Assembly (NCBI GenBank): GCA_033764615.1
Contig: JANRIU010000064.1
Span: 13,423 to 77,422 of the forward strand
Length of the DNA: 64,000 nt
From: Gemmatimonadales bacterium
Lineage (GTDB): Bacteria > Gemmatimonadota > Gemmatimonadetes > Gemmatimonadales > GWC2-71-9
Direction of reading: 5' to 3'
In this document: piece by piece, positions 1 to 12,921 of the stretch
Numbering within the stretch: the first letter of the stretch is position 1
Layout: each line of letters starts with the position of its first letter
The notes under the pieces: model-generated
Told to the model about the DNA's origin: nothing
The model's input: the letters and a program-made list of their open reading frames with translations, nothing else
Database searches by the model: none
Made by a program: the position numbers and the translations under genes

Positions 1-620
1 GCCTGCCCCGCCCCGACCTCGCCGAACTGCACCAGCCCGAACGAGCTGGCGAGGTGGGGCACCGCCGCGATCCGCAGCAGCAGCAGCCGGTACCGGTTCG
101 CGCCGGGCGCCGTGCGGATCGTCGCCATGCCGTTCGGCGACTGCAGCGTGGCGAGCGTCACGTTGCTCGCCGCCGTCGAGAGGATGCGGGCCGAGGCGCC
201 GGGCTGCCCCGCGACCGCCGCCGTGCGGATGGTGATCCACTGGCCGCGCGGGCACCGCTTCGCCGGCAGCACGAAGTTGCCGGTGTAGAAGCCACCGGCC
301 GTCAGCTGGATGGTGGAGCCGCAGGCGGCGTTGTTGATCGCCACCTGCAGGTTGCCGCCCGGCGCCACGCTGACCACGGGCCCCGGCGAGTTGACGTCCG
401 TCAGGTCCAGCCGCCAGCGCGGCAGCTCCGCCGACCACATGAACTCGGCCCGCGGCCCGACGATCAGGCTGGTCGCCGTGTCCGCCGGCGACGGCCCCGC
501 CACCGAGAGCGCCGCCCGAGGCGACACGTCGTCGACGGCGGCCGGCGATCCGGGCTCCGACGGGGCACCGCACGCGGCCATCATGACCAGACCGAGCGGC
601 AACGCTGCACGAGGATGCAT
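1..620 (-). CDS. Putative lipoprotein with right-handed beta-helix (pectin-lyase-like) start; 3' end outside window
   Basis: Hand-translated: ATG at 620 after GGAGG; MHPRAALPLGLVMMAAC (lipobox-like), then VSVAPGGNLQVAINNAACGSTIQLTAGGFYTGNFVLP, typical of the N-terminal cap of beta-helix proteins. Frame open to window edge. Confidence 0.7.
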   Translation of the reverse strand, partial: MHPRAALPLGLVMMAACGAPSEPGSPAAVDDVSPRAALSVAGPSPADTATSLIVGPRAEFMWSAELPRWRLDLTDVNSPGPVVSVAPGGNLQVAINNAACGSTIQLTAGGFYTGNFVLPAKRCPRGQWITIRTAAVAGQPGASARILSTAASNVTLATLQSPNGMATIRTAPGANRYRLLLLRIAAVPHLASSFGLVQFGEVGAGQ

Positions 621-819
621 CGACCTCCACCTTCCTGAGAGGGGCCCGACCGCACGGCCGACGACGACCCCTCCGGGGACCGGCGCTGCGAACGATCGCT
701 TCAAACCTGAGTGGGCGAGTAGGCATACGGGACCAGAACCCAACCTCTCGGTGCATCGTCACCAGTGCCGCTAGCTTCCGCGGTCGTTCGCGTCACACCG
801 CCTCGAGCCCCACGACCCC

Positions 820-2238
820 ATGCCGACCCTGCTCGTCAACGCCCGCGAGACCCCGGTGGACACCGGCCGCCGCCTCGCCACGGCCTTCCTCGGCTACTTC
901 ACGGTCGTGGTCGCTGTCATCACACTCGTCCCTTTCACGATCAGGACGCCGCCAGATTGGCGACTCATCACGGCGTTCGTTGCAGGGGATTTTGCGGCGA
1001 ATATAGCGCTTTTCCTTCCGATTGGCTTCCTCACCGCCTCGATCAGTCGGGCACGAGGCATCGGGTCGCTCCTGAAGGCCGCCGCCCTCGGTTTCCTGCT
1101 CAGCCTCCTCATCGAGTACGTGCAGGAGTTCATGCCCGAACGGATCCCGGCAGCGTGGGACCTCGTGGCCAACACGCTCGGCGCGACGATCGGCGCCGGC
1201 GGCTACGTGCTCGCCTCCCGCGGCGGCCGCGGCCTCGACGCGCCCATGGTCGAGCGGCTCGCCCTCGACCTCCCGCTCGCCGGCCTCGTCTACCTCATGG
1301 TGCCGCTCACCTGGCTGACGGCGCTGGCGCACGAGGGGACCGACTGGGCCCTGGGCCTCACGGCGCCGCTCGGCCTCATGGGCGCCATCGTCATCTCGTC
1401 GGTGCAGCGGGAGGGCCTCCGGCGCCGGGGCGCGGGCCCGGCGCTCCTCGCCACTGCGTGGTTCGCCTCCGCCGTGCTCGCCGGCGCCCCCGACCAGCTG
1501 CTGCCGGGCCTCGCCCTCATCGCGGCCGTCGGCGGCCTCACCGCGCTGCTCGGCAACGCGACGCGCCGCTCGGCCGAGACCGACCGACGGTACGAGCCGA
1601 AGACGCTCGCCACCATCGCGCCGATCGGGCTGCTCTGGCTTGCCGCGCTGGCCGGCGGGCCGCTGCTGGGCGGCGTGGTGTCGTTCGATTTCTCGGTCGC
1701 GCCGGTCTCGGGCGACGGCGGCTGGTCGCGGCAGAACGTGCTCCGCCTCGTGGAGCAGCCGACCGCGTTCGCGGTGCTCGGCTATGCCATCGCGCAGTGG
1801 ATCGGCCGCCGCATCGAGGCATTCGCCACGTCGCTGGCCTACGTGCTGGCGGGTGCGGTGCTCGGCGGGCTCATCTTCGAGATCGCGCGCGGCGTCGCCG
1901 ATGGCTACGGCGCGAGCCTCGTCGGCTTCCTGCTCTCGGTGGGCGGCGCCGCGTTCGGTTGCGCCGTCTACCACCTGCAGCTCGGCCACCTGAAGGCGCT
2001 GCGCGACGAGGCGCGGGAGCAGCAGAAGCAGGCGCGCGAGGCCGCCGAGGCGGCGGAGCTCGCGCGGCGCCGCACGGCCGAGCCGGTGCGGACCGCGCTC
2101 CCGGCCGCGCTCGAGACGACCGAGGCCGAGGTGGTGCTGCTGGAGGACGTCGCGGAGGTGGCGGCGGTGGAGGTCGAGGTCGAGGTGGAGGTCGACCCCG
2201 CCAGGGCGGACGACCGACCGGCGCCGAAGGCGCCGTGA
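820..2238 (+). CDS. VanZ-family polytopic membrane protein
   Basis: DFAANIALFLPIGF...SLLIEYVQEFMPERIPAAWDLVANTLGA VanZ motif; many TM segments; acidic EVEVEV tail. Confidence 0.8.
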   Translation: MPTLLVNARETPVDTGRRLATAFLGYFTVVVAVITLVPFTIRTPPDWRLITAFVAGDFAANIALFLPIGFLTASISRARGIGSLLKAAALGFLLSLLIEYVQEFMPERIPAAWDLVANTLGATIGAGGYVLASRGGRGLDAPMVERLALDLPLAGLVYLMVPLTWLTALAHEGTDWALGLTAPLGLMGAIVISSVQREGLRRRGAGPALLATAWFASAVLAGAPDQLLPGLALIAAVGGLTALLGNATRRSAETDRRYEPKTLATIAPIGLLWLAALAGGPLLGGVVSFDFSVAPVSGDGGWSRQNVLRLVEQPTAFAVLGYAIAQWIGRRIEAFATSLAYVLAGAVLGGLIFEIARGVADGYGASLVGFLLSVGGAAFGCAVYHLQLGHLKALRDEAREQQKQAREAAEAAELARRRTAEPVRTALPAALETTEAEVVLLEDVAEVAAVEVEVEVEVDPARADDRPAPKAP

Positions 2239-2253
2239 GCGCGGCGCGGTGGC

Positions 2254-3483
2254 TCAGCGCGCCGCCTCCCGCAGCCGCCTGAGGGGCTCGAGCGCGAACT
2301 CGGCGAGCGTGCGCCGGCCCGTGATGATCCGCGCCTCGCCCCCCATGCCCGCCACCAGCGGCCGCCCCGCCCCATCCACGACGATCACCGAATCGGCGAG
2401 CGTCACGATCGCCCGGAACGCGAGCGCCTCGCGCTCGGCGCCCGGGACGCCGGCGGGGCCGGCCCACCGCACCACGCCCTCGCGGATCCCGTAGCGCTGG
2501 TACGGGAACGCGTCGAACAGCAGCCGCACCGGCTGCCCCGCGCTCACGCGGGCGACGCCGTCGGCGGGGAGCTGCATCTCGCCCACCAGCCCGCCCTCAC
2601 GGCACGCCACCTCGGCCAGTTCCTCGCCCTCCTGCACCACCGCCCCCGCCGCGCGCACGCGCAGGCGGAGCACCGTGCCGTCGCAGGGCGCGCCCACCAC
2701 GAGCCGGTCGCCGGAGGCGGCCGCGAGGGCGGCGCGGAGCGCGCGGACGCGCCCCTCGGCGCGCGCGGATTCGAGGCGGAGCCGCCGCTCCGCCTCGCGC
2801 GCCTCCGAGGCGCGCGCCGACATGCCGTAGCGCAACCGCTCGAGCCCCGAGCGCGCGTCCGCCAGCTGCCGCTCGGCGGCGGCGAGCTCGTCACCCACGC
2901 GCGCCACGTTGAGCCGGAGCGAGGCGAAGTCGACGCCGCGCGTCGCCCCGCTCTCCACCCCCTGCTCGGCCTTCGCCTCCAGCTCCTGGAGGATCTGCAG
3001 CTGGCGCCGCTTCGAGGCGATCGCCTGCGCGAGCGACTGCTGCAGCCCCTCCAGCCGCGCCACCTCCGCCTCGTCGGCGCGGCGGGCGTCCTCGGTGCGC
3101 GCCCGCAGGTCGGCCAGCGACACCGGGGCCGACGCGCGCTCGGCCTCCAGCGCGCGCAGTTCCGCGATCTCGTCGCCGATCGGCGCGGAGCGGAGCTCGA
3201 CGAGCGGCGCGCCGCGCCGGACCTCCGCCGCCTCGGTGGCCGCGACGCGCGCGACGACGCCCGCGCGCGGCGCGCGCACGGGGTCGGCGCCGCCGGCCGG
3301 CATCAGCCGGAAGCGCCCGCGCACCGACTCGGGCACCCGCACCGTCACCAGCGCGACCGTCGCGAGCACGAAGCCGGCGATGGCGAGCGTGGCGAGGCGG
3401 CGCGCGAGCATCGGCGGCGGGTCGGGATCGAGGAACGGCGGCTCGGCCTCGGCGGCGGTCGGCGGGAGCGGCGGCGCGGTCAC
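2254..3483 (-). CDS. HlyD-family membrane fusion (periplasmic adaptor) protein
   Basis: GTG start overlaps upstream TGA (GTGA 3480-3483); N-terminal TM, lipoyl half-motifs, long coiled coil, FDAFPYQRYG and GMGGEARIITGRRT typical of T1SS/bacteriocin MFPs. Confidence 0.9.
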   Translation of the reverse strand: MTAPPLPPTAAEAEPPFLDPDPPPMLARRLATLAIAGFVLATVALVTVRVPESVRGRFRLMPAGGADPVRAPRAGVVARVAATEAAEVRRGAPLVELRSAPIGDEIAELRALEAERASAPVSLADLRARTEDARRADEAEVARLEGLQQSLAQAIASKRRQLQILQELEAKAEQGVESGATRGVDFASLRLNVARVGDELAAAERQLADARSGLERLRYGMSARASEAREAERRLRLESARAEGRVRALRAALAAASGDRLVVGAPCDGTVLRLRVRAAGAVVQEGEELAEVACREGGLVGEMQLPADGVARVSAGQPVRLLFDAFPYQRYGIREGVVRWAGPAGVPGAEREALAFRAIVTLADSVIVVDGAGRPLVAGMGGEARIITGRRTLAEFALEPLRRLREAAR

Positions 3484-6400
3484 TGGCCCAGCTGCTGCGA
3501 GCAGAGGTAGAAGTAGAGCCCCTGGTTCTCCATCAGCTCCTCGTGCGTCCCGAGCTCGGCGACGCGCCCCTGCTCCAGCACGAGGATCCGGTCGGCGTCG
3601 CGCACCGTGCTCAGGCGGTGCGCGATCACGAACGTGGTGCGCCCGCCGAGCAGCTGGTCGAGGCTCTCCTTCACCGCGCGCTCGGACTCGGTGTCGAGCG
3701 CGCTCGTCGCCTCGTCGAGGATGAGGATCGGCGGCCGGCGGTAGAGCGCCCGCGCGATGGCGATGCGCTGCCGCTGCCCGCCCGAGAGCGCGAGCCCCGA
3801 CTCGCCGATCGGCGTGTCGTAGCCGAGGGGCAGGCGCGCGATGAAGTCGTGCGCGGCGGCGGCGCGCGCGGCCCAGATCACGGCGTCGAGGTCGGGCTCG
3901 TCCTCGCCGAAGGCGATGTTGCGCGCGATCGTGTCGCTGAAGAGGTGGTTCTCCTGCAGCACGAAGCCCACCTGGCGCCGGAGGTCGCGGTAGTCGAGCG
4001 TCGTGAGGTCGCGCCCGTCGAACAGCACCTGCCCCGCCGTCGGCTCGAGCAGGCCGGCGAGGAGCTTCACGAGCGTCGTCTTGCCCGAGCCGCTCCGGCC
4101 GACGATGGCGATCGTGGCGTTGGGCGGCACGTCGAGCGAGATGTCGTCGAGGATCGGCGGCGACTCGGGGCCGCCGTACCGGAAGCCGACGTTGCGCAGC
4201 TGCACGCGCCCCTCCAGCGAGCGGACCGGGAGCAGCCGGGACCGGTCGCGCCCCTGCTCCGGCTCGGGCTCCAGCACGTCGTTGAGCCGGTCGAGGAGCA
4301 CGGCGATCCACTGGAAGCCGTCCCAGAGGCCGACGAGCGTCAGCAGCGGCCCGTTGGCGAGCGCGACGAGCGCGCTGAAGGCGACGAACGCGCCGACGGT
4401 GAGGCGCTGGTCGAGCACCTGCAGGGCACCGACCCAGAGGAAGAGCGCGGTGGCGAGGAAGCCGAGCGCCTGCACCGCGGCGTCGTAGGACATGAGCAGG
4501 AAGCTGGCGCGGAAGCGCCGCCGGGCGATGCGCGTGAACTCGCGCAGCATGAGCTCGCGCAGCGCGCCCTCGGCGCCCATCGCCTTCACCGTCTCGATGC
4601 CGCGGATCGCGTCCACCTGGTGGCTCTGGTAGCGCCCGCTCGCCTCCTCCAGCGAGGCGAACATCGGCCGGAGCCGCGCGCGCGAGAACCAGAGCAGCAG
4701 CCCGTACAGCGGCACCGTGGCGAGGAAGACGAGCGCGAGCGTGCCGCTGTAGAGCGCCATGAGCAGCAGCGCCACGGCGAACTGCACCGCCGCGGAGAGC
4801 CCCACCACCGCGTTCCCGACGACGAACTCGCGCACCTGCTGCATCCCCGCGAGGCGCCGCTGGATGTCGCCCGTGCGGCGGGCGGCGAAGTAGCGGAGCG
4901 GCAGCGCCAGCAGCGTGCGGGTGAGGAAGTCGAGCGCGGCGGTGTCGACCCGCACGGCGACCCACGCGAGCAGGTACCGCTGCACGAGCGCGGTGCCGAT
5001 GGCGGCCGCGAGGACGGCGGCCATGCCGAGCACCAGCGCGACGAGGAGGCCGGTGTCCTTCTCCACCAGCACCTTGTCCACGATGACCTGCGAGAACACC
5101 GGCAGGCACATCTGGAGGGCGCTGACGACGAAGGCGAGGCCGAGGGCGCGGCCGAGGAGGCCCGCGAAGGGCCGGATGAACGGCAGGAGCCAGCGCCCGG
5201 AGCGCGCCCCCTCCGGCGCGCCGGCGAACGCCTCCGTGAGGTCGAACAGCGCGGCGAAGCCGGTCCAGCGGCGCGCGAACTCCTCCAGCGGCACGCGGCG
5301 CGGCCCGAGCGCGGGGTCGGCGATCCAGGCGTGCGTGGCGTCGGTGTGGTGGAGGACGACCCAGTGGTTCCCCTCCCAGTGCACGATCGCGGGGACGGGG
5401 AGCCGCTCGAGCGTGGCGACGTCGGTGCGCACCGCGCGCGCCGCGAGCCCGAGCGCCTCCGCCGCGCGCACCAGCGCGCGGAGCGACGTGCCGTCGACCG
5501 AGGTGTGCGCGAGCTCGCGGATGCGCGCGAGCGACACCTCGCGCCCGAAGTGGCGGCACACCATCGCGAGGCAGGCCGCCCCGCAGTCCATCGCGTCGAT
5601 CTGCCGCACGAACGGCACGCGCCGGATGCGGTGCCGCCGCCGGACGAAGCGCCCGCCGGCGTCGCGGAACGGCGCGTCCGGCGTCGCCGCGTCGACGAGG
5701 CCGGCCGCCGCCATCTCGCGCGAGACCGACTGCGCGCGGCGCTCGGGCGCCTCGAGCGCCTGGGCGTCGGCCGGCAGCAGCTCCTCGGCGAAGTCGAGCG
5801 GCACGCGCGCCGTGGCGCGGTAGTCGTACTGCGCCACGCGCTGCGCGATGGCGGCGGCGAAGGGCGGGCACTCGTCCAGCAGCCGGCGGAACGCCTCGCG
5901 CGTGAGCGCGAGCAGCACCCCGTCGCGGTACGCCTCGACGGTCGCGGCGCGCGGCTGGTCCTTGAAGACCGAGAGCTCGCCGAACCAGTCGCCGCGGCGC
6001 AGGAAGGCGAGGTAGCGGCGCCGGCCGTCCTCCTCCACGAAGGCGCGGAGCTGCCCCTCCTGCACGATGTACATCGCGCCCGGCGGGTCGCCCGCGCGGA
6101 CCACCACCTCGCCCGCGCGGACGCGCACCGGCTCCAGCCCCTCGAGGAGGCGCGCCAGCGCGTCGGGCGGCAGCACGCGGAAGGCGGTGAACTGGAGGAA
6201 GAAGTTGTGCAGCTCGCGGTGGCGCGCCTGCAGCTCGAGCCACTGGCCGAGCTCCGGCCGCGCGGCGACGAGCGCCGCGAACGCGGCGGCGTCGAGCCGC
6301 CATGCCTGCACGTCGCCCGATGCGCGCACCGTCGCCGAGCGGGTGCCGCCGCCGAGGAGCGCGGCCTCGCCGAAGAGGTCGCCGGGGCCGAGGCGGTTGA

Positions 6401-6632
6401 GCGGCACCTCGGCGCCGCCCTCGCCCGCCTTCACGACGCGGGCCCGGCCCTGCGCGATCACGTAGAGCGCGTCGGCCGCGTCGCCCTCGCGCACGAGCAC
6501 CTGGCCGAAGCGGTACGTCACCGGCTCGAAGGCGGCCACGACCGCGTCGCGCCCCTCCTCGGAGAGGAAGCGCAGCAGCGGCAGGTCGCGCAGGGGGGCG
6601 CGGTCGTCCGGGGCGACGGGCGGGGCGCTCAT
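3480..6632 (-). CDS. Peptidase-containing ABC transporter (2x cNMP-binding + C39 peptidase + TMD + NBD)
   Basis: Start MSAPPV overlaps upstream stop; FGEAALLGGGTRSATVRA and FGELSVFKDQPRAATVEA cNMP cassettes; QIDAMDCGAAC...HWVV...IADP C39 triad; GRSGSGKT, LSGGQ, LILDEATS, IAHRL. Confidence 0.95.
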   Translation of the reverse strand: MSAPPVAPDDRAPLRDLPLLRFLSEEGRDAVVAAFEPVTYRFGQVLVREGDAADALYVIAQGRARVVKAGEGGAEVPLNRLGPGDLFGEAALLGGGTRSATVRASGDVQAWRLDAAAFAALVAARPELGQWLELQARHRELHNFFLQFTAFRVLPPDALARLLEGLEPVRVRAGEVVVRAGDPPGAMYIVQEGQLRAFVEEDGRRRYLAFLRRGDWFGELSVFKDQPRAATVEAYRDGVLLALTREAFRRLLDECPPFAAAIAQRVAQYDYRATARVPLDFAEELLPADAQALEAPERRAQSVSREMAAAGLVDAATPDAPFRDAGGRFVRRRHRIRRVPFVRQIDAMDCGAACLAMVCRHFGREVSLARIRELAHTSVDGTSLRALVRAAEALGLAARAVRTDVATLERLPVPAIVHWEGNHWVVLHHTDATHAWIADPALGPRRVPLEEFARRWTGFAALFDLTEAFAGAPEGARSGRWLLPFIRPFAGLLGRALGLAFVVSALQMCLPVFSQVIVDKVLVEKDTGLLVALVLGMAAVLAAAIGTALVQRYLLAWVAVRVDTAALDFLTRTLLALPLRYFAARRTGDIQRRLAGMQQVREFVVGNAVVGLSAAVQFAVALLLMALYSGTLALVFLATVPLYGLLLWFSRARLRPMFASLEEASGRYQSHQVDAIRGIETVKAMGAEGALRELMLREFTRIARRRFRASFLLMSYDAAVQALGFLATALFLWVGALQVLDQRLTVGAFVAFSALVALANGPLLTLVGLWDGFQWIAVLLDRLNDVLEPEPEQGRDRSRLLPVRSLEGRVQLRNVGFRYGGPESPPILDDISLDVPPNATIAIVGRSGSGKTTLVKLLAGLLEPTAGQVLFDGRDLTTLDYRDLRRQVGFVLQENHLFSDTIARNIAFGEDEPDLDAVIWAARAAAAHDFIARLPLGYDTPIGESGLALSGGQRQRIAIARALYRRPPILILDEATSALDTESERAVKESLDQLLGGRTTFVIAHRLSTVRDADRILVLEQGRVAELGTHEELMENQGLYFYLCSQQLGQ

Positions 6633-7672
6633 GCCCAGCGGACGCGCTCGCGCACGCGGCGCGCGGCCGCGTCCTCGACGAGCAGCCGCTCGGCGCGACG
6701 CCGCGTCGCGGGGTCGTCGAGCGAGGGGAGCGTCTTGCTGGCGACGGTCATGATCCAGTGGCCCGCCGGCGTCGCGATGGGGCCGATGAGGTCGCCGGGG
6801 CCGGCGGCGAGGAGCGCGTCGCGCACCGCGGGTGGCGCCTCGTCGATGATGAGGCTCCCCCGCATCGGCGCCACGCCCGCCTGCCCCGCTGCGTCCGCGA
6901 GCGCCATCCCGTCGGCGGTGACGCAGAGGTGCAGCTCGCGCGCCACGTCCTCCGACGCGTGGACGACCCACGTGCCGCTGAGCCACACCCAGTCGAGCCG
7001 GCGCCGCTCCACCACGCGCTCGAGCGCCTCGGGGGTGAGCGCGTCCGCGCGCCACGCCTCCCAGCCGTGGAGCAGCGCCTCGATGCGCGGCCGCCGCGCT
7101 GCCAGCCACGCCTCGGGGACGCCAAGCGCGTCCCACGGCAGCGGGGCGACGAGCAGCGCGTCCGGCGGCGGCACCGTGCCGGGCGGCGCCACGGCCGCGA
7201 AGCGCGCCAGTTCGCCGAGCGTCCAGGCGAGCAGGTCGGAGGCGTGCAGGTCGACCCGGAGCGCCGCGACGACCTCGTCGTCGTCGCTCGCGTCGGTCTC
7301 GGTCGTGGCCGATCGGCCCTGGCGCGCGAGGTCGCGCACCACGCCCTCGCGCCAGTCGGCGGCGGTGAGCCCGCGCGCGTCGAGCCAGGCGCGCATCCGG
7401 TCGGCCGCCTCCAGCCCGCGCTCGTAGCGGAACGCGGCCAGCGCCTCCCGGCACGCCGTGTCGGGCGGCGCCCCGCGTCGGCGCAGCGCCATGAGCCCCG
7501 CCACCACCTGCGCGCGGAGCAGCGGCCACTCGCCGCGGCGCTCGGCCAGCAGGAGCGCGTCGGCGAATGCGTATGCGTCATCATCGGTGCGGAAGGCGGG
7601 CGCCGCGAGCGCGCGATCGTGGATCAGGGGCTCCGCGGGCGCCGCCGGGACCGGGCGGTCGGTGGATGCCAC
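6629..7672 (-). CDS. PpiC/parvulin-related accessory protein of the export operon
   Basis: C-terminal ARELHLCVTADGMALADAA...GDLIGPIATPAGHWI resembles a rotamase domain; translationally coupled to the transporter. GTG 7672 chosen because of the promoter just upstream; ATG 7759 is an alternative. Confidence 0.7.
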   Translation of the reverse strand: MASTDRPVPAAPAEPLIHDRALAAPAFRTDDDAYAFADALLLAERRGEWPLLRAQVVAGLMALRRRGAPPDTACREALAAFRYERGLEAADRMRAWLDARGLTAADWREGVVRDLARQGRSATTETDASDDDEVVAALRVDLHASDLLAWTLGELARFAAVAPPGTVPPPDALLVAPLPWDALGVPEAWLAARRPRIEALLHGWEAWRADALTPEALERVVERRRLDWVWLSGTWVVHASEDVARELHLCVTADGMALADAAGQAGVAPMRGSLIIDEAPPAVRDALLAAGPGDLIGPIATPAGHWIMTVASKTLPSLDDPATRRRAERLLVEDAAARRVRERVRWA

Positions 7673-7678
7673 GCCGGA

Positions 7679-7738
7679 ATGCTCACCGCTCCCGCGGGTC
7701 GTGTCAACGCGCGGGGCGGCATTCACGCGCGATTCACG
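7679..7738 (-). promoter_or_regulatory. Sigma70-type promoter of the export operon with upstream direct repeat
   Basis: Minus-strand TTGACA (7707-7702), 17 nt, GAGCAT (7684-7679), 6 nt, GTG; ATTCACG repeated at 7721-7727 and 7732-7738 (11-bp period). Confidence 0.55.
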
Positions 7739-7897
7739 GGCATGCGTCATCATGCCCATGGTCGACACGCCGCCTCCACGGCGGCATATTGGCGAGGGGG
7801 GCCATCGGGCGAGGGAACGCCCCGCCCCGCCTTCGCCAGCACCAGCGCCAGCCCGACCGGCCGGCGCACGCGGACCCCGGGAACCAAGGAGCCCACC

Positions 7898-8101
7898 ATG
7901 AGCACCACGCATCCGACGCCCGACGATGGCCTGGACGATCTCCCGCCCAAGCCCGACGCGATCAAGCAGGCGGACCAGGTGAAGGGCGGCGCGGCCGACG
8001 CCTTCGCCGCGACGGACATGGAGAGCGAGGACGTCGGCGGCCTGCTGAACACGAACCGCGGCGGCATGATGGACTCGCAGCGCGCGAAGAGCGGGTACTG
8101 A
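7898..8101 (+). CDS. Double-glycine leader precursor peptide (67 aa), candidate substrate of the adjacent transporter
   Basis: AAGGAG RBS; MSTTHPTPDDGLDDLPPKPDAIKQADQVKGG then AADAFAATDMESEDVGGLLNTNRGGMMDSQRAKSGY; divergent from the C39 transporter operon. Confidence 0.8.
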   Translation: MSTTHPTPDDGLDDLPPKPDAIKQADQVKGGAADAFAATDMESEDVGGLLNTNRGGMMDSQRAKSGY

Positions 8102-8145
8102 ACGCGCAGGCGACGGACCGGCTTCGTCGGCGGCCCTGCAGGGAT

Positions 8146-8175
8146 GCGGGCGGACCTCCTCGAGGGTCCGCCCGT
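8146..8175. terminator. GC-rich hairpin between convergent genes
   Basis: GCGGGCGGACCT-cctcga-GGGTCCGCCCGT 12-bp stem (with G-U pairs) between the peptide stop and the ArsC-like stop. Confidence 0.55.
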
Positions 8176-8176
8176 G

Positions 8177-8533
8177 TCATTTCGCGGTCCACGCCCGCCA
8201 GGTCGCCTCGTCCCGGCCGAGCGAGAGCGCCTTGTCATGCCGCACCAGCGGCTGCCTGAGCAGCAGCGGCTCCTCCACCAGCAGCGCCAGCCACCGCTCC
8301 TCGCCATGGCGCGCAGGCCCGAGGCCCAGCTCCGCGAAGCGGCGGCCCTCCCGGTCCACCAGCGCCTCCACGCCGAACTTCTGCACGAAGCGCGTCAGCT
8401 CCCCCTTGGACGCCGCGCGCTCGGCGAGGTCGACGAAATGCACCGGGATCCGCCGCTCGGCAAAGAAGCGGAGGGCGTGGCGGGTGTCGGGGTGCTTCTT
8501 CGTGCCGAAGACCTGGATGGACAAGGCGGGCAT
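8177..8533 (-). CDS. ArsC/Spx/MgsR-family protein (cysteine-free)
   Basis: IQVFGTKKHPDTRHALRFFAER...PLLLRQPLVR family pattern. Confidence 0.8.
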   Translation of the reverse strand: MPALSIQVFGTKKHPDTRHALRFFAERRIPVHFVDLAERAASKGELTRFVQKFGVEALVDREGRRFAELGLGPARHGEERWLALLVEEPLLLRQPLVRHDKALSLGRDEATWRAWTAK

Positions 8534-8581
8534 GAGGGCACGCGGGCCGGAGGCCGGAAGGGGCGGCGATGCGGCGAGCAA

Positions 8582-8665
8582 TGCCCAGGGCGGGGATCGA
8601 ACCCGCAAGTCCTTGCGGACGCGAGATTTTGAGTCTCGTGCGTTTGCCAGTTTCGCCACCTGGGC
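8582..8665 (-). tRNA. tRNA-Leu(CAA)
   Basis: GCCCAGGTGGCGAAACTGGCAAACGCACGAGACTCAAAATCTCG...GGGTTCGATCCCCGCCCTGGGCA; CAA anticodon, long variable arm, TTCGA T-loop; CCA not encoded. Confidence 0.95.
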
Positions 8666-9163
8666 GGGCTCCGGAAAGTAGCGCCCGCCCCCAGCCCCCG
8701 GCCCCCCAAGGCAAAATCCCCCGCCCTCCGCTCGCGCGGTGACCGGGGGATTTCGGAGAGATACTTGCTTCCGGAGCCGGATTTCGGCGCCACCCCTCTC
8801 GGAGCAGCCACCTAGATCGATCGTCGGTGTGGCCTGGCCAGGGTTTCTTGCTCGACGGCGTAGCCGTCTTGCCTGCGGCCTGACCGGTCCACCCTCCCGG
8901 TGCTCCAGCGGCGTCGCGACCGCCGGCCCCTCTCCCGCGGGGCGTTCCCGCTCGAACCGTCGACTTGCGTCGCCGATTCTGAGGACCAACGTATCGCGCG
9001 CCGCTTGAAGCGAACATGAAGCAGCGGTGTCGTCGTTGTCCACGCATCGGGCGATTCCCAACACGCTATCCACAACCTTCTCGTCAGTCCGTCCACATCC
9101 GGCGACATCCGCGCGCCCGCAGCCCTTGGTGGAACGGTGTACCGGCGCTTTCTTTTGCGCCCC

Positions 9164-9715
9164 ATGAACGGACTCCATCTCTGGCACGACATCCCGGCCG
9201 GCCCCAGGCCGCCCGAGGAGCTCACGGCGGTCATCGAGATCCCCGGCGGCGGCAAGATGAAGTACGAGCTCGACAAGGAGCTCGGCGTCTTCCGGCTGGA
9301 CCGGGTGCTCCACTCCGCCGTCCACTATCCCGGCGACTACGGCTTCATCCCGCGCACGCTCGGCGATGACGGCGACCCGCTCGACGTCATCCTGATCATG
9401 GCGAACAGCACGTTCCCCGGGTGCCTGGTGGACGTCCGCCCCATCGGCGTCTTCCACCTGATCGACAAGGGCGCGGGCGACGAGAAGATCCTGGCCGTCG
9501 CGATCAGCGACCCGTACACGCGGGAGATCGTCGACCTCTCGAGCGTGCGCGCGCACAAGCTCAAGGAGATCGAGCACTTCTTCCAGGTCTACAAGGACCT
9601 CGAGGGGCACCGCACGGAGACGCGCGGCTTCGCGAATGCCGCCGAGGCCCGGCGGCTGATCGTGGAGGGGATGGAGCGGTACACCCGCAAGTTCGGCGGC
9701 CGCGCGCACGCCTGA
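9164..9715 (+). CDS. ppa: Inorganic pyrophosphatase, family I
   Basis: KYELDK, YPGDYGFIPRT, DGDPLD, DEKI, HFFQVYKDLE. Confidence 0.95.
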   Translation: MNGLHLWHDIPAGPRPPEELTAVIEIPGGGKMKYELDKELGVFRLDRVLHSAVHYPGDYGFIPRTLGDDGDPLDVILIMANSTFPGCLVDVRPIGVFHLIDKGAGDEKILAVAISDPYTREIVDLSSVRAHKLKEIEHFFQVYKDLEGHRTETRGFANAAEARRLIVEGMERYTRKFGGRAHA

Positions 9716-9745
9716 CCCGCGCGCGGCGCGCGGCCTGCCGCGCGC

Positions 9746-10519
9746 TCAGTCGTCGTCCCGCAGCGCCTTTGGCGGTCCCAGCACGTCCTGCAGCAGCACC
9801 GACCGGCGCAGCGACGCCCCGGTCAATCCCTCGCCCAGCAGGCTCGCGGGCGCGCGCACCGCCGTGCGGTCGGCGGGAGCCGCCGGCGTCGCGAGGACGC
9901 GGTGCGTGCCCGGTGCGGCGACCGGCACCTGCACCTGCCGGTGGAAGCGCTCATGCTCGCCCGTCGTGCGCCCCGCGAGCCGCGCCTCGGCGGCGGCCAG
10001 CCGCCGCCGCTCCGCCGCGAAGCTCTCGTCGTCGAGGTCCACGTCCACCCGCGTCCCGCGGTCGCTGTCGGTGCGCTCGAGCGATGCGCCCTCGAGGGTG
10101 ATCGCCTCGGGCTGGTCGATCGCCTCGTCGTCGAGCGCGGGCGGGAGGCGGCGGGACTGCGAGCCACGCCCGCCCAGCCCGACGGGCGCGGGTCGCGTCG
10201 CGTCATCCGTGCGTGCCTCGGCGCCGGCCTCCCGCTGCGCCGTCTCCAGCCCCCGCAGCAGCTGTTCGAGGAGCGTCCCCTCCTGCTGCGTGGCGGTGGT
10301 CGGCGCGGTCGATCCCGGCGGCGCCCCGGCCGACCACGGCTCGGGCGGCGACGGCGGCAGCTCGGGCACGCGGCGCTCGCCACGCGGCCTCGTGCGCTTC
10401 GCGCGCTCGGCCTGCTTCGCCCGCCCGATCGCCTCGCGGACCGTGTTGAACAGCCCCCAGAGGATCGCGAGGCCGAAGATCCACCCGCCCAGGTCGGCGC
10501 GGGACGGCACGTCGCTCAC
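9746..10519 (-). CDS. Hypothetical membrane-anchored protein, third gene of the nfeD-floA operon
   Basis: GTG overlapping the floA stop; N-terminal TM; C-terminal [18 protein letters not shown] motif typical of genes following floA. Confidence 0.7.
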
Positions 10520-11526
10520 GCGCCCGCGCCGCCCTGCGCCTGCCCGCTGTTGTCGGTCGGCCCGGCGATCGACTGCCGCATCGACGTGTCGGCCTGGAGG
10601 TTCCGGTACTTCGCGAAGTCCATCACGCCCAGGTTGCCGCTGCGGAACGCATCGGCGATCGCGAGCGGCACCTGCGCCTCCGACTCGATCACCTTGGCGC
10701 GCATCTGCTGCGCCTCCGCCTTGAACTCCTGCTCCATCGCCACGGCGAGCGCGCGCCGCTCCTCCGCCTTCGCCTGCGCGATCCGCTTGTCCGCCTCGGC
10801 CTGGTCCGTCTGCAGCTCGGCGCCGATGTTCTTGCCGACGTCCACGTCGGCGATGTCGATCGACAGGATCTCGAACGCGGTGCCCGCGTCGAGCCCCTTC
10901 GCGAGCACCGTCTTGGAGATCATGTCGGGCTGCTCGAGCACCTTCTTGTGGCTCTCCGCCGAGCCGATCGTGCTCACGATCCCCTCGCCGACGCGCGCCA
11001 GGATCGTCTCCTCGCCCGCGCCGCCCACGAGGCGGTTGATGTTCGCGCGCACCGTCACGCGCGCCACCGCGAGCAGCTGGATGCCGTCCTTCGCCATCGC
11101 GGCGACCTTCGGCGTGGTGATCACCTTCGGGTTCACGCTCACCTGCACCGCCTCGAACACGTCGCGGCCGGCGAGGTCGATCGCGGTGGCCTGCTTGAAG
11201 TCGAGCGCGATGCCGGCCTTCTCCGCCGAGATCAGCGCGTTCACCACGCGGCTCACGTTGCCGCCGGAGAGGAAGTGCGACTCGAGCTGGTCGGCGCTCA
11301 GCGCGAGGCCGGCCTTGTGCGCGTTGATCAGCGGGTTCACGATGGCGCCGGGACTGACCTGCCGGAAGCGCATCAGGAAGAGCTGCATGAACGACACGCG
11401 CACGCCGGAGACGAACGCCTGGAACCACAGGCCGATCGGCACGAAGCGGAAGAAGACCGACAGCGCGATGAGGCCGAGGACGACCAGGACGAGCAGGATG
11501 CCGAGCGAGGTCTGGGACTGGTCCAT
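10516..11526 (-). CDS. floA: Flotillin-like protein FloA (YqfA)
   Basis: [56 protein letters not shown]. Confidence 0.95.
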
Positions 11527-11613
11527 GGGTGGGTCGGAAGCTCCGGTGGTCAGGGAAGGCGCGGCGGACGCGCGGATGGCGGAGGGTGCTCCGGACGGGC
11601 GCGCGGCCGGCGG

Positions 11614-12921
11614 TCAGCCGGCGGCGCGCACCACGTGGCGATACCCCTCCGACCGCACCACTTCCACCGCGGCGCCGTTCGAGACGTACTCGCCCTCGGT
11701 GACGACGTCGAGCCGTTCGCCCTCGACGGTGGCGGCGCCGCTCGGGCGCAGGTCGGTGACCGCGGTGCCGCGGCGGCCCACGAGGTCGGCCCGCGGGAGG
11801 GCCGCGACGAAGCCGTCCTCCGCGCGTGCCGTGTCGAGCAGGAGCGCGCGGCGGAAGCGGTCGCTGTTCGGCAGGTGCCGCAGCCACGCGATGAAGACGC
11901 CGAGGGTGAACAGCAGGCTCACGCCAAGGATGCCGACCGCCTGCATCAGCTCGCCCATCGCGGGGGCCGGGCCGGTCATCGCGAGGATCACGGCGCCCGT
12001 GATCGATGCGATGCCGATGAGCCCCGCTATCCCGAAGCCCGGCAGGACGAACAGCTCCAGCACCAGCGCCAGCAGGCCGACGCCGAGGAGGATCAGCTCC
12101 TCCCACCCCGCGAGGCCGAGCACCCAGCTCGAGCCGAAGAAGAGCCCGAGCGACGTGACCGACAGCATGCCGCCGAGGCCGAACGCGCCGGCCTTGATCT
12201 CCATGACGAGGCCGATCATGCCGAGCGAGAGGAGCAGCGGCGAGACCGCGGGATGCGTGAGGAAGCGCACGATCTTCTCGGCCCAGTTGACCGGCACGTC
12301 CACCACCGTCGCGCCCGGCTGGCCGATCGCCGCGAGCAGCGCGGCCTCGTCGGCCGCCTCGCCGCGCGCGACGCCGAGCCGCACCGCCTCGGCCGCCGAG
12401 AGCGTCAGCAGCTTCCCCTTCGGCTTCACGCCCGGCAGCTCGACGTCCTCGTCCACCATCGCCTCGGCGAGCCGCGGGTCGAGCCCCCGCTGCTCGGCGA
12501 GCGCGCGGAACTCGGCCCGCATCGCCGAGACGATCTTCTCCGGGGCGCGCTGCCCTTCGCCGAGCACCGGCGTCGCCGCGCCGATGATGCCGCCCGGCGC
12601 GATGTGCACGTCCCGCGCGGCCAGCGCGATCATGGCGCCCGCCGAGAGCGCGCGCGGATGCACCCAGGCGTGCACCGGCACCGGCGACGCGCGCACCGCG
12701 TCCACGATGCGCTGCGCCGCGTCGACGCGGCCCCCCGGGGTGTCGAGGTCGAGCACGACGGCGGCGGCGCCCTGCGCCTTCGCCTCCGCGAGCCCGCGGA
12801 TGATGTAGGGGGCGAGGCCGTTCTCGATCACGCCCGTCACCGTGAGGCGGTGGACGGGAGACTGGGCCGTGAGGGTGACGGGCAGGAGGAGCAGGACAGC
12901 GAGACAGCGAGCCGGACGCAC
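11614..12921 (-). CDS. nfeD: NfeD-family membrane-bound serine protease
   Basis: Signal peptide, LDTPGG, ALSAGA, TM bundle, C-terminal OB fold TDLRPSG; upstream of floA. Start approximate. Confidence 0.9.
   Translation of the reverse strand: MRPARCLAVLLLLPVTLTAQSPVHRLTVTGVIENGLAPYIIRGLAEAKAQGAAAVVLDLDTPGGRVDAAQRIVDAVRASPVPVHAWVHPRALSAGAMIALAARDVHIAPGGIIGAATPVLGEGQRAPEKIVSAMRAEFRALAEQRGLDPRLAEAMVDEDVELPGVKPKGKLLTLSAAEAVRLGVARGEAADEAALLAAIGQPGATVVDVPVNWAEKIVRFLTHPAVSPLLLSLGMIGLVMEIKAGAFGLGGMLSVTSLGLFFGSSWVLGLAGWEELILLGVGLLALVLELFVLPGFGIAGLIGIASITGAVILAMTGPAPAMGELMQAVGILGVSLLFTLGVFIAWLRHLPNSDRFRRALLLDTARAEDGFVAALPRADLVGRRGTAVTDLRPSGAATVEGERLDVVTEGEYVSNGAAVEVVRSEGYRHVVRAAG

What the first reader, a model, noticed from the sequence alone, without database searches (positions are those of the whole stretch)
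2254..8101. Compact peptide-export system: dual-cNMP C39 transporter + PpiC-like + HlyD with a divergent, easily missed GG-leader peptide
Seen: a translationally coupled three-gene operon and, divergent from it, a 67-aa ORF with a strong RBS and a leader ending DDLPPKPDAIKQADQVKGG. The C39 domain keeps Cys, His and Asp. Known: C39 transporters cleave after double-Gly leaders, and PpiC-transporter-HlyD triads occur in cyanobacteria, often without a known cargo. Inference: the 36-aa core AADAFAATDMESEDVGGLLNTNRGGMMDSQRAKSGY is the cargo. It is acidic, Cys-free and unlike cationic bacteriocins, and no modifying enzyme or immunity gene is adjacent. This suggests a signalling or matrix peptide class, or modification in trans.
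Basis: partly seen in the sequence, partly recalled or inferred. Interest (0 to 1): 0.85.

Follow-up and report, generated by a model that had tools for sequence, protein, structure and literature searches.

The report
Exported double-glycine peptide and its transporter
A small gene next to a peptide-cutting export pump in a soil Gemmatimonadota genome very probably encodes the pump's cargo, and its export tag belongs to a widespread tag family that I could not find described.

Summary
On the minus strand, three overlapping genes encode a SurA/PrsA-like "PpiC-like" protein, a transporter with two cNMP domains, a C39 peptidase and an ABC exporter, and a HlyD adaptor. Divergent from them, 7898-8101(+) encodes a 67-aa peptide with an AAGGAG ribosome-binding site and coding-type base composition.

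Of 53 related loci, mostly Gemmatimonadota and Acidobacteriota MAGs, 37 carry 72 small ORFs with the same leader (…DLP…KAxQVKGG). The window peptide matches a profile of 60 such leaders, ending exactly at G31. It is the best six-frame hit in its genome, which holds only one C39 transporter. The C39 Gln/Cys/His/Asp residues are conserved.

The usual architecture differs from the window. Arrays of very short, cationic cores lie downstream of HlyD, next to a sensor-less sigma-54 activator. The window lacks that activator. Its peptide is divergent, as in L061 and L051. Its 36-aa core is longer than all 60 others and acidic, and it has no homologue in any database searched.

Cleavage, export and function are untested. 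No curated family or paper found covers these peptides. Verdict: a real cargo-transporter pair, a new variant of a known kind.

The parts
2254..3483 (-). HlyD-family membrane-fusion (periplasmic adaptor) protein, 409 aa. Its GTG start overlaps the transporter's stop (GTGA).
   Evidence: Pfam HlyD_3 7.3e-13 and HlyD_D23 6.5e-09. TIGR01843 1.8e-40, below its cut-off. Overlap seen.
3480..6632 (-). Peptidase-containing ABC transporter (PCAT), 1050 aa, with two N-terminal cNMP-binding domains. It is the only C39 transporter found in the genome.
   Evidence: Pfam. NCBIfam best hit TIGR03796 at 546.8 bits, below its 853.3 cut-off. Single copy by tblastn. ATGA overlap with the upstream gene.
5871..6560 (-). 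Two cyclic-nucleotide-binding domains (about residues 25-254 of the transporter).
   Evidence: Pfam cNMP_binding, 2 stretches, E 6.3e-52, best stretch residues 169-254. The lower boundary of the first domain is approximate.
5241..5618 (-). C39 cysteine peptidase domain (residues 339-464), with Gln, Cys, His and Asp conserved.
   Evidence: Pfam 3.7e-38. Alignment to 6mpz_A, 4ry2_A and ComA chains.
3702..5141 (-). ABC transmembrane region (residues 498-763) and ATPase domain (residues 828-977).
   Evidence: Pfam ABC_membrane 2.8e-37 and ABC_tran 1.5e-36.
6629..7759 (-). SurA/PrsA-like ('PpiC-like') protein with no signal peptide visible. The start is uncertain: homologues begin about 46 codons later, and a GTG near 7669 is an alternative start read from the sequence.
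   Evidence: Alignments A1 and A2. AlphaFold2 pLDDT 93.5. Foldseek SurA 9hga_F 2.9e-05, PrsA 6vj4 5.7e-04, Cj1289 3rgc_A 9.8e-04, and parvulin domains at TMt 0.65-0.74.
7762..7790 (+). Sigma-70-like promoter candidate for the peptide gene (TCGACA-17-CATATT).
   Evidence: 1 site found against a mean of 0.0 in 50 shuffles. This is a consensus match only.
7886..7891 (+). Ribosome-binding site AAGGAG, 6 nt before the ATG.
   Evidence: Similar AGGAG-type sites lie before 41 of 60 related peptide ORFs.
7898..7990 (+). Double-glycine leader, residues 1-31, ending in VKGG.
   Evidence: Leader profile aligned to residues 8-31, conditional E 8.4e-06. The DL and GG columns are invariant in alignment A3.
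7991..8101 (+). Predicted mature core (36 aa, net charge -3, no Cys or Pro) plus the stop codon.
   Evidence: No homologue found.
8143..8178 (.). 15-bp GC-rich hairpin between the peptide gene and the convergent ArsC-family gene. It may be a bidirectional terminator.
   Evidence: strand folding: -47.1 kcal/mol for 8099-8185, z -2.63. There is no T-tract, so the terminator scan did not call it.

Best explanation
7898-8101(+) is a real gene for a 67-aa precursor. Residues 1-31 are a double-glycine export leader and residues 32-67 are the cargo.

Proposed path (cleavage and export are inferred, not shown):
1. The precursor is made in the cytoplasm. A sigma-70-like promoter at 7762-7790 and an AAGGAG ribosome-binding site are candidate signals.
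2. It may be held by the cytoplasmic SurA/PrsA-like protein encoded first in the divergent operon.
3. It is recognised by the C39 domain of the only peptidase-ABC transporter in the genome, cut after Gly31 and pumped across the inner membrane.
4. The HlyD adaptor and a TolC-type outer-membrane protein encoded elsewhere carry it out of the cell.
5. The two cNMP domains probably make export depend on a nucleotide second messenger.

The locus is a divergent member of a conserved system found in Gemmatimonadota, Acidobacteriota and some other phyla. It has no sigma-54 activator. In that system the same leader type tags arrays of very short peptides.

My best guess for the mature 36-aa acidic, probably disordered peptide is an unmodified extracellular signal or matrix peptide (about 0.4). 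An antibiotic is less likely (about 0.15) and a peptide modified in trans less likely still (about 0.1).
For: Shown here:
- The ORF has coding-type GC by codon position, an RBS, and was called as a gene in the protein collection.
- A profile of 60 leaders from other genomes aligns to residues 8-31 and ends at the GG (14.7 bits, conditional E 8.4e-06).
- Among 44,399 six-frame ORF segments of the genome, this ORF is the top hit (E 0.52; the next best is 6.8).
- A regex for the motif hits only this ORF in the genome.
- The genome holds one C39, one cNMP-transporter and one PpiC-like homologue, all adjacent.
- 37 of 53 related loci have at least one such peptide, 72 in all. Twelve of the 16 loci without one are short or cut contigs.
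- The discovery filter gives 62 hits per 0.84 Mb in the loci against 3 per 3.28 Mb in the genome.
- The divergent-upstream arrangement recurs: 7 of the 72 peptides, in L025, L048, L051, L061 and L062. L061 has the most similar C39 domain (71%) and an IDDLPP leader (BLASTP E 4e-05).
- The C39 catalytic columns are conserved.
- TolC-type OEP domains are present elsewhere in the genome (17 matches).
- The PpiC-like protein has a SurA/PrsA-like fold.
- Complex prediction, PpiC-like protein plus peptide: weak support. Score 0.59 against a best control of 0.00. The mark was reached by 58 of 80 solved complexes and 2 of 110 mismatched pairs. At 0.60 or under, however, it was reached by only 7 of those 80 and by both mismatches. 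The runs agree in at least 17% of contacts, and the partner's pLDDT is at least 39.

From papers:
- The cNMP domain of the PCAT HetC binds ppGpp in vitro and is needed in vivo (PMC10986499, abstract and passages).
- A TIGR04500 protein, MirC, is an obligatory chaperone-like partner in a peptide pathway (PMC13097080, section 9).
Against: - No homologue of the whole peptide or of its core was found. One search returned only itself. One search, an exhaustive phmmer search of 1.84 billion representatives, returned itself plus one 278-aa low-score hit. One search found none in metagenome contigs. One search found nothing in the genome or the loci. Selection on the core therefore cannot be shown.
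- The leader-profile score is not significant genome-wide on its own (E 0.067 to 0.52).
- No Pfam or NCBIfam leader or bacteriocin family matches.
- The residues at -12 and -15 are Asp and Pro, not the hydrophobic residues of classical GG leaders (the consensus is recalled, not from a call).
- The core is an outlier. It is longer than all 60 compared cores (median 11.5 aa, maximum 34). Its net charge is -3, against a family median of +2.
- The transporter scores below the curated cut-offs of TIGR03796 and TIGR01193.
- The window lacks the sigma-54 activator and promoter that are typical of the family.
- The chaperone-peptide contact has only weak computational support.
- Cleavage, export and expression are untested.
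Confidence: 0.8

Rival explanations
1. The 67-aa ORF is a chance open frame in 70%-GC DNA. The transporter's cargo lies elsewhere or has been lost.
For: Long open frames occur in all six frames here. The same frame is open for 447 codons. There is no homologue of the peptide. The leader-profile E-value is 0.067 to 0.52 genome-wide.
Against: GC3 is 0.96 with GC2 0.48, in the pattern of real genes. An AAGGAG site lies at the right spacing. This is the single best leader match in 3.28 Mb and it lies beside the only C39 transporter. The alignment ends exactly at GG. L061 shows the same divergent arrangement.
Confidence: 0.05
2. It is an unmodified antibacterial peptide (class II microcin or bacteriocin type), with its immunity gene unrecognised or elsewhere.
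For: GG leader plus PCAT plus HlyD is the classical microcin export set (PMC12219008, listing and abstract only). Core sequences are hypervariable across the family, as expected for weapons. A VanZ-like membrane protein lies next to HlyD.
Against: The core is acidic, Gly/Asn-rich and predicted disordered (Atlas model pLDDT 0.36). It has no amphipathic or hydrophobic stretch. No small membrane-protein gene lies beside it. Most family cores are only 5-15 residues long, which is short for pore-formers.
Confidence: 0.15
3. It is a RiPP precursor modified in trans. The PpiC-like protein would act as a MirC-like partner that presents the leader to an enzyme encoded elsewhere.
For: TIGR04500 MirC is required for graspetide maturation and has an RRE-like N-domain (PMC13097080, section 9). 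In G002 the PpiC-like gene sits beside a LanB-like 1066-aa ORF; the LanB reading is by eye from its N-terminus. A Cys-rich ~380-aa protein accompanies the peptides in 9 of 53 loci.
Against: The window protein scores 19.9 bits against the TIGR04500 cut-off of 180. The own genome has no homologue of the Cys-rich protein. None of the 53 loci apart from L063 (the locus of G002, from which the query was taken) matched the LanB-like query. The core has no Cys. Most of the 53 loci show no enzyme gene between the operon and the peptides.
Confidence: 0.1
4. The peptide is cleaved, but the functional product is the leader or an intracellular fragment, as in the regulatory model discussed for HetC. The exported core would be a by-product.
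For: The leader is the conserved part and the cores are not. A model of this kind is raised for HetC (PMC10986499, discussion passage).
Against: Nothing here supports it directly. Conservation of the leader is explained fully by its recognition by the C39 domain.
Confidence: 0.05

Closest known systems
EbfG1-4 / PteB of Synechococcus elongatus PCC 7942 (PMC4997328; abstract and passages read)
   Same: Small GG-motif proteins sit next to a C39 peptidase transporter. The cargo has no homologues or known domains. Its function is not antibiotic (biofilm matrix). The paper says PteB has a domain organisation like HetC.
   Different: EbfG cores are 6-7 kDa and the genes lie in tandem with the transporter gene. 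The passages read mention no SurA-like gene, HlyD or sigma-54 activator. The leader family is different. No sequence comparison was run here.
HetC of Nostoc PCC 7120 (PMC10986499; abstract and passages read)
   Same: It is a PCAT with an N-terminal cNMP domain and catalytic Cys and His. The nucleotide-binding domain is needed for function. A signalling-peptide role is proposed.
   Different: HetC is described with a single cNMP domain, where the window transporter has two. It has no membrane-fusion gene nearby and no GG-leader gene nearby, and its substrate is unknown. In the window the candidate substrate is adjacent.
MirC (TIGR04500), partner protein of rosaritide biosynthesis (PMC13097080; section 9 read)
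   Same: It is a cytoplasmic SurA-like, 'PpiC-type' protein encoded with a PCAT and a leader peptide. It is thought to present or chaperone the precursor.
   Different: MirC works with an ATP-grasp ligase, and no such enzyme is present in the window. The window protein is far below the family cut-off (19.9 against 180 bits). According to the paper, the MirC C-domain does not resemble the PPIase domain. The window model does match parvulin domains (TMt 0.65-0.74).
PCAT1 / LahT150 / ComA double-glycine peptidase transporters (PDB 4ry2, 6mpz, 8hf4)
   Same: The C39 domain aligns at E 1e-17 to 2e-24 with the catalytic columns kept. The ABC exporter core is the same.
   Different: Those transporters have no cNMP domains. 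Their substrates carry classical leaders. They come from Gram-positive organisms and have no HlyD.
Class II microcin systems (CvaAB type; PMC12219008, listing and abstract only; the rest recalled)
   Same: The set of GG leader, PCAT, HlyD-type adaptor and a TolC supplied in trans is the same.
   Different: Microcin loci carry an immunity gene, and their cores are antibacterial. None of this is evident in the window. That paper does not contain the words Gemmatimonad-, Acidobacter-, 'cyclic nucleotide' or 'sigma-54'.

Membership tests
Double-glycine leader peptide (PCAT substrate) | An N-terminal leader of about 15-30 residues that ends in GG, GA or GS | tested here: met
   The leader is 31 residues and ends in VKGG. 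The GG columns are invariant in the 31-sequence alignment A3.
Double-glycine leader peptide (PCAT substrate) | Classical hydrophobic positions at -4, -7, -12 and -15 (consensus recalled from the literature) | tested here: inconclusive
   Position -4 is Val and -7 is Ala, but -12 is Asp and -15 is Pro. The family instead conserves DL(P) at -17/-18 and K-A-x-Q at -8 to -5.
Double-glycine leader peptide (PCAT substrate) | A match to a curated leader or bacteriocin model in Pfam or NCBIfam | tested here: not met
   P0001 matched 0 families at E <= 0.1 and at E <= 10 in Pfam. The related peptides tried (6 in Pfam; 9 in NCBIfam) matched no leader or bacteriocin model at E <= 10.
Double-glycine leader peptide (PCAT substrate) | Encoded beside a C39 transporter that has the catalytic Cys | tested here: met
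   The peptide ATG lies 138 nt from the longest reading of the first operon gene. The C39 Gln/Cys/His/Asp residues are kept.
Double-glycine leader peptide (PCAT substrate) | Cleavage after GG and export | not testable with these tools
   This needs biochemistry or peptidomics.
'DLP...VKGG' leader family found here (not a named family) | Alignment to a profile of 60 leaders from other genomes, ending at GG | tested here: met
   14.7 bits, conditional E 8.4e-06, profile positions 7-30 aligned to residues 8-31. It is the top hit in the genome.
'DLP...VKGG' leader family found here (not a named family) | Short cationic core, downstream of HlyD and a sigma-54 activator, behind a GG-N10-GC promoter | tested here: not met
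   The core is 36 aa with net charge -3. The gene is divergent and upstream. No strict promoter match occurs in 1-12000, and the best activator homologue in the genome is only 43% identical and lies elsewhere.
NHLP/bacteriocin export PCAT (TIGR03796, TIGR01193) | A score above the curated cut-off | tested here: not met
   546.8 against 853.3 bits, and 394.8 against 523.85 bits. All four Pfam domains are above their own cut-offs.
cNMP-domain PCAT (HetC/PteB type) | cNMP domain(s) N-terminal to a C39 peptidase and an ABC exporter | tested here: met
   Two cNMP_binding stretches, then C39, ABC_membrane and ABC_tran. The first domain reads FGE...RSA and the second FGE...RAA. The meaning of that motif is recalled. 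Ligand binding was not tested.
TIGR04500 'PpiC_rel_mature' | A score above the cut-off of 180 bits | tested here: not met
   19.9 bits, E 3.6e-04.
SurA/PrsA-type chaperone with a parvulin domain | A chaperone helical domain plus a parvulin fold | tested here: met
   Model pLDDT 93.5. SurA 2.9e-05, PrsA 5.7e-04, and parvulin domains 3gpk_B at TMt 0.65 and 6xd8_A at 0.74. The isomerase active-site residues were not examined rigorously.
Class II microcin locus | An adjacent immunity gene | tested here: not met
   The neighbours are VanZ-like, ArsC, a tRNA, a pyrophosphatase and FloA. A role for the VanZ-like protein was not tested.

The most novel reading that the evidence does not exclude
The window holds a long-cored offshoot, without an activator, of an undescribed peptide circuit that is common in soil Gemmatimonadota and Acidobacteriota. 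The circuit consists of a cytoplasmic SurA-like chaperone, a nucleotide-gated peptidase exporter, HlyD, a sensor-less (PspF-like) sigma-54 activator, and arrays of 5-15-residue cationic peptides behind sigma-54 promoters. On this reading the circuit works as peptide-based cell-cell signalling in diderm bacteria. Some members of the same family export pieces of the type VI secretion tube protein Hcp.
Probability: 0.25. Interest if true: 0.85.

Novelty: new variant of a known kind. Interest (0 to 1): 0.6.

Why it matters
Peptidase-ABC transporters with cNMP domains are common in diderm bacteria, but their cargo is usually unknown. HetC is the standard example. Here a cargo can be named from sequence, and the leader family gives a handle for finding such cargo in at least five phyla of mostly uncultured soil bacteria.

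If the short peptides prove to be signals, this would be a peptide communication system of Gram-positive style in Gemmatimonadota and Acidobacteriota. The set of genes is small enough to rebuild in a laboratory host. The pairing with a cytoplasmic SurA-like protein also broadens the recent finding that such proteins act as partners in peptide pathways.

Tried and rejected
- Homologues of the whole peptide. The word-index search returned only itself. Exhaustive phmmer returned itself plus one 278-aa hit at E 9.7e-04 in five stretches, which I regard as spurious. The metagenome contig scan matched 277 pattern stretches, none confirmed.
- Core against the own genome and the loci by tblastn at E <= 50: nothing beyond itself.
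- PDB sequence search with P0001: one hit at E 1.4 to an unrelated enzyme.
- ESM Atlas: the nearest clusters are unnamed 56-59-aa proteins of Methylomirabilota, Acidobacteriota and Verrucomicrobiota at 0.88-0.89. That is under the 0.9 bar, so it is a lead only.
- Idea that the window core is Hcp-like. It was prompted by BLASTP of P0001 against an L048 peptide (E 3e-07, running 15 residues into the core). P0001 against a full Hcp gave only E 0.096, and that match is in the leader. The own genome has no PF05638 match. I rejected the idea for the window.
- Sigma-54 control of the window peptide: no strict promoter match in 1-12000 and no orthologous activator. Rejected.
- My first, narrower sigma-54 regex found only 3 of 60. 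I replaced it after reading the upstream sequences. The pattern was therefore tuned on these data.
- Rfam on 1-12000: only the tRNA.
- Sequencing runs: none was listed and no RNA holder was listed.
The MirC structural figures (S32-S37 of PMC13097080) and any cluster tables of PMC8939145 could bear on how close the window protein is to TIGR04500 proteins.
- Searches for prior description returned nothing on this leader family, on sigma-54-linked GG peptides, or on Hcp-like GG peptides. The library lacks most subscription journals.

Full report
**What is in the window.** The minus strand carries three genes:
- a 376-aa protein at 6629-7759;
- a 1050-aa transporter at 3480-6632;
- a 409-aa HlyD-family adaptor at 2254-3483.

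The stop and start codons overlap as ATGA and GTGA. Pfam finds two cNMP-binding stretches, Peptidase_C39, ABC_membrane and ABC_tran in the transporter, and HlyD domains in the adaptor. The first protein has only sub-threshold sequence hits: Rotamase_2 at E 0.034, and TIGR04500 at 19.9 bits against a cut-off of 180.

AAGGAG lies 6 nt before the ATG. GC by codon position is 0.67/0.48/0.96, the pattern of the neighbouring real genes. A sigma-70-like promoter candidate lies at 7762-7790. A 15-bp hairpin at 8143-8178 separates the gene from a convergent ArsC-family gene.

The other neighbours are a VanZ-like membrane protein, a tRNA, a pyrophosphatase and FloA. No modifying enzyme is adjacent. Contig titles of the related loci place the relatives mostly in Gemmatimonadota. 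The window's own genome is a 3.28-Mb assembly in 103 contigs, 97.7% complete.

**Is the small ORF more than chance?** This DNA is open in many frames, so length alone means nothing. The peptide has no hit in Pfam or NCBIfam. It has no homologue in the word-index search, in an exhaustive phmmer search of 1.84 billion representatives, or in metagenome contigs.

The evidence comes from comparison of loci instead. The first gene has homologues in 5 of 60 sampled relatives and in 28 of 400 other genomes of the family. In the first two loci examined, tandem small ORFs with the same leader lay next to the operon.

A pattern scan of GTDB species genomes gave 53 loci. tblastn with the window proteins matches the C39 domain in 49 of them, HlyD in 34 and a sigma-54 activator in 30. 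The order is conserved: SurA-like gene, transporter, HlyD, activator.

A simple filter for leader-like ORFs found 62 hits in these 840,421 bp. One of them was judged spurious by eye. The same filter found 3 hits in the whole 3,276,606-bp genome of the window, one of which is the ORF in question. A profile search and a looser regex added peptides in six more loci.

In total, 37 of 53 loci carry 72 peptides. Twelve of the 16 loci without one are short or cut contigs. Four (L038, L043, L053, L058) have long flanks and nothing was found in them. Several loci come from closely related MAGs, so these counts are not independent.

**Does the window peptide belong to that leader family?**
- A profile built from 60 leaders, none from the window, aligns to residues 8-31 and ends at the GG (14.7 bits, conditional E 8.4e-06).
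- Among 44,399 six-frame ORF segments of the genome it is the top hit, at E 0.52. That is not significant on its own. The next best hit is at 6.8.
- A regex for the motif hits only this ORF in the genome.
- The genome has a single C39 domain, a single cNMP transporter and a single SurA-like homologue, all adjacent.
- In the 31-sequence alignment the DL and GG columns are invariant, and the window leader is 19-38% identical to the others.
- The closest systems by transporter identity share the window's layout. L061, a Gemmatimonadaceae MAG with 71% C39 identity, has two divergent upstream peptides with IDDLPP/IDELPS leaders.
- Seven of the 72 peptides are divergent and upstream. Loci without a visible activator tend to have their peptides upstream rather than downstream.

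**How the window differs from the usual system.**
- In the common form, one to six peptides lie on the same strand downstream of HlyD and the activator (52 of 72).
- The activator has a sigma-54 interaction domain that starts at residue 26, plus an HTH_8 domain, and no sensor domain.
- A strict GG-N10-GC sigma-54 promoter pattern lies within 200 nt upstream of a peptide in 11 of the 31 loci that the first filter flagged. The background is 0.006 per 200 nt. I tuned that pattern after reading the upstream sequences.
- Across the 60 cores, the median length is 11.5 aa (range 5-34) and the median net charge is +2. None has Cys and 42 have Pro.
- The window has no such promoter in 1-12000. Its best activator homologue is 43% identical and lies elsewhere, whereas the loci's activators are 50-100% identical to the query.
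- The window core is 36 aa long with net charge -3 and no Pro. It is a divergent member. Its SurA-like protein also has the lowest profile score among full-length family members.

**The machinery.** The C39 domain aligns to LahT150 and PCAT1 with the Gln, Cys, His and Asp columns kept. The Cys column is the one mutated to Ala in a deposited PCAT1 chain.

The first protein folds with high confidence (pLDDT 93.5). The model matches SurA, PrsA and the SurA-like proteins PEB4 and Cj1289, including a parvulin-fold domain. The aligned homologues begin directly with a conserved strand, and I see no signal peptide. I therefore read it as cytoplasmic.

A 2026 paper shows that the TIGR04500 protein MirC, also SurA-like, is an indispensable partner in a peptide pathway that includes a PCAT (PMC13097080, section 9). 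A complex prediction of the window protein with the peptide gave weak support. The score was 0.59 and the best control 0.00. At this score level only 7 of 80 solved complexes pass, and so do both of the 110 mismatched pairs that passed at all. The runs agree in at least 17% of contacts, and the partner's pLDDT is at least 39.

TolC-type proteins are encoded elsewhere in the genome. For the cNMP domains the nearest studied case is HetC, whose domain binds ppGpp (PMC10986499, abstract and passages).

**Mechanism and rivals.** I conclude, at about 0.8, that the peptide is the transporter's cargo. It would be cut after Gly31 and exported through HlyD and a TolC-type channel. The SurA-like protein may act as a cytoplasmic holder, and the cNMP domains as a gate. 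The anatomy and the family membership are shown. Cleavage, export, gating and holding are inferred.

For the function of the core I favour an unmodified signal or matrix peptide. The alternatives are an antibacterial peptide, a peptide modified in trans, a chance ORF, and a leader-centred regulatory role. All are listed with their tests.

**Comparison with what is known, and novelty.** The kind is well known: a GG-leader cargo with a PCAT and HlyD. What I could not find described is the following:
- this leader family;
- its constant pairing with a cytoplasmic SurA-like protein and a two-cNMP PCAT;
- its usual sigma-54 wiring;
- the extreme shortness of most cores.

Neither curated model library covers the peptides. 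Seven full-text searches found nothing on them. I therefore rate the window locus a new variant of a known kind, with interest 0.6.

**A side observation.** In one Acidobacteriota MAG (L048), at least five peptides of this leader family have cores that match successive segments of the type VI secretion tube protein Hcp, each starting right after the GG. No full-length Hcp was found in that assembly. The window peptide does not share this property.

Noticed in passing
L048 9027-9805(-), 16747-17156(-), 17744-17911(+): An Acidobacteriota MAG has at least 5 GG-leader peptides whose cores match consecutive segments of the T6SS tube protein Hcp. Four gave BLAST matches to Hcp residues 2-22, 8-27, 49-70 and 87-107, at E 7.7e-07 to 3.9e-04. 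These were the top 4 of the 64 peptides compared. The fifth matched only the Pfam Hcp model, at positions 61-85 (E 0.27). PDB hits for two of the cores are all Hcp-type chains. PF05638 found no full-length Hcp in that assembly. A core in L025 matches Hcp 103-127 (E 4.7e-04).
   Followed up: partly
L032 10216-11229 and equivalents in 30 of 53 loci: A sigma-54 activator with no sensor domain (the AAA+ domain starts at residue 26, followed by HTH_8) follows HlyD. GG-N10-GC promoters precede the first peptide of an array in 11 of 31 loci. The window lacks both.
   Followed up: partly
L048 17932-19104(-), L013 7951-9087(+), and 7 other loci: A Cys-rich protein of about 380 aa with no Pfam family lies next to the peptide arrays in 9 of 53 loci. 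It has no homologue in the window's genome. It could be a modifying enzyme or a receptor.
   Followed up: partly
L013 9669-14024 (= L063): In genome G002 the PpiC-like gene sits beside a 1066-aa ORF whose N-terminus looks like a lanthipeptide dehydratase (by eye; no family search was run). Two GG peptides lie convergent to it and there is no transporter next to it.
   Followed up: no
L047 about 9750-9960(+): An Acidimicrobiia locus has a peptide directly upstream of the PpiC-like gene. Its leader ends in QVTGG and its core is Cys- and His-rich, unlike the Cys-free cores elsewhere.
   Followed up: no
L017, L020, L032, L057, L066 and others: A sub-family of peptides shares both a leader (…FLKDLAPRxDVKGG) and a conserved core start (GKLLFGQ or similar). 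It is the only case here where the core is conserved across genera.
   Followed up: no
window 820-2238(+): A 472-aa membrane protein with a VanZ-like domain lies convergent to HlyD. Its C-terminal region is rich in Ala, Glu and Val. No link to the export system was tested.
   Followed up: no
window 6629-7759(-), first ~46 codons: Homologues lack the N-terminal ~46 residues of the longest reading. GC3 there is 0.83, against 0.95 for the rest. The true start may be a downstream GTG near 7669, which would widen the divergent intergenic region to about 230 bp.
   Followed up: partly
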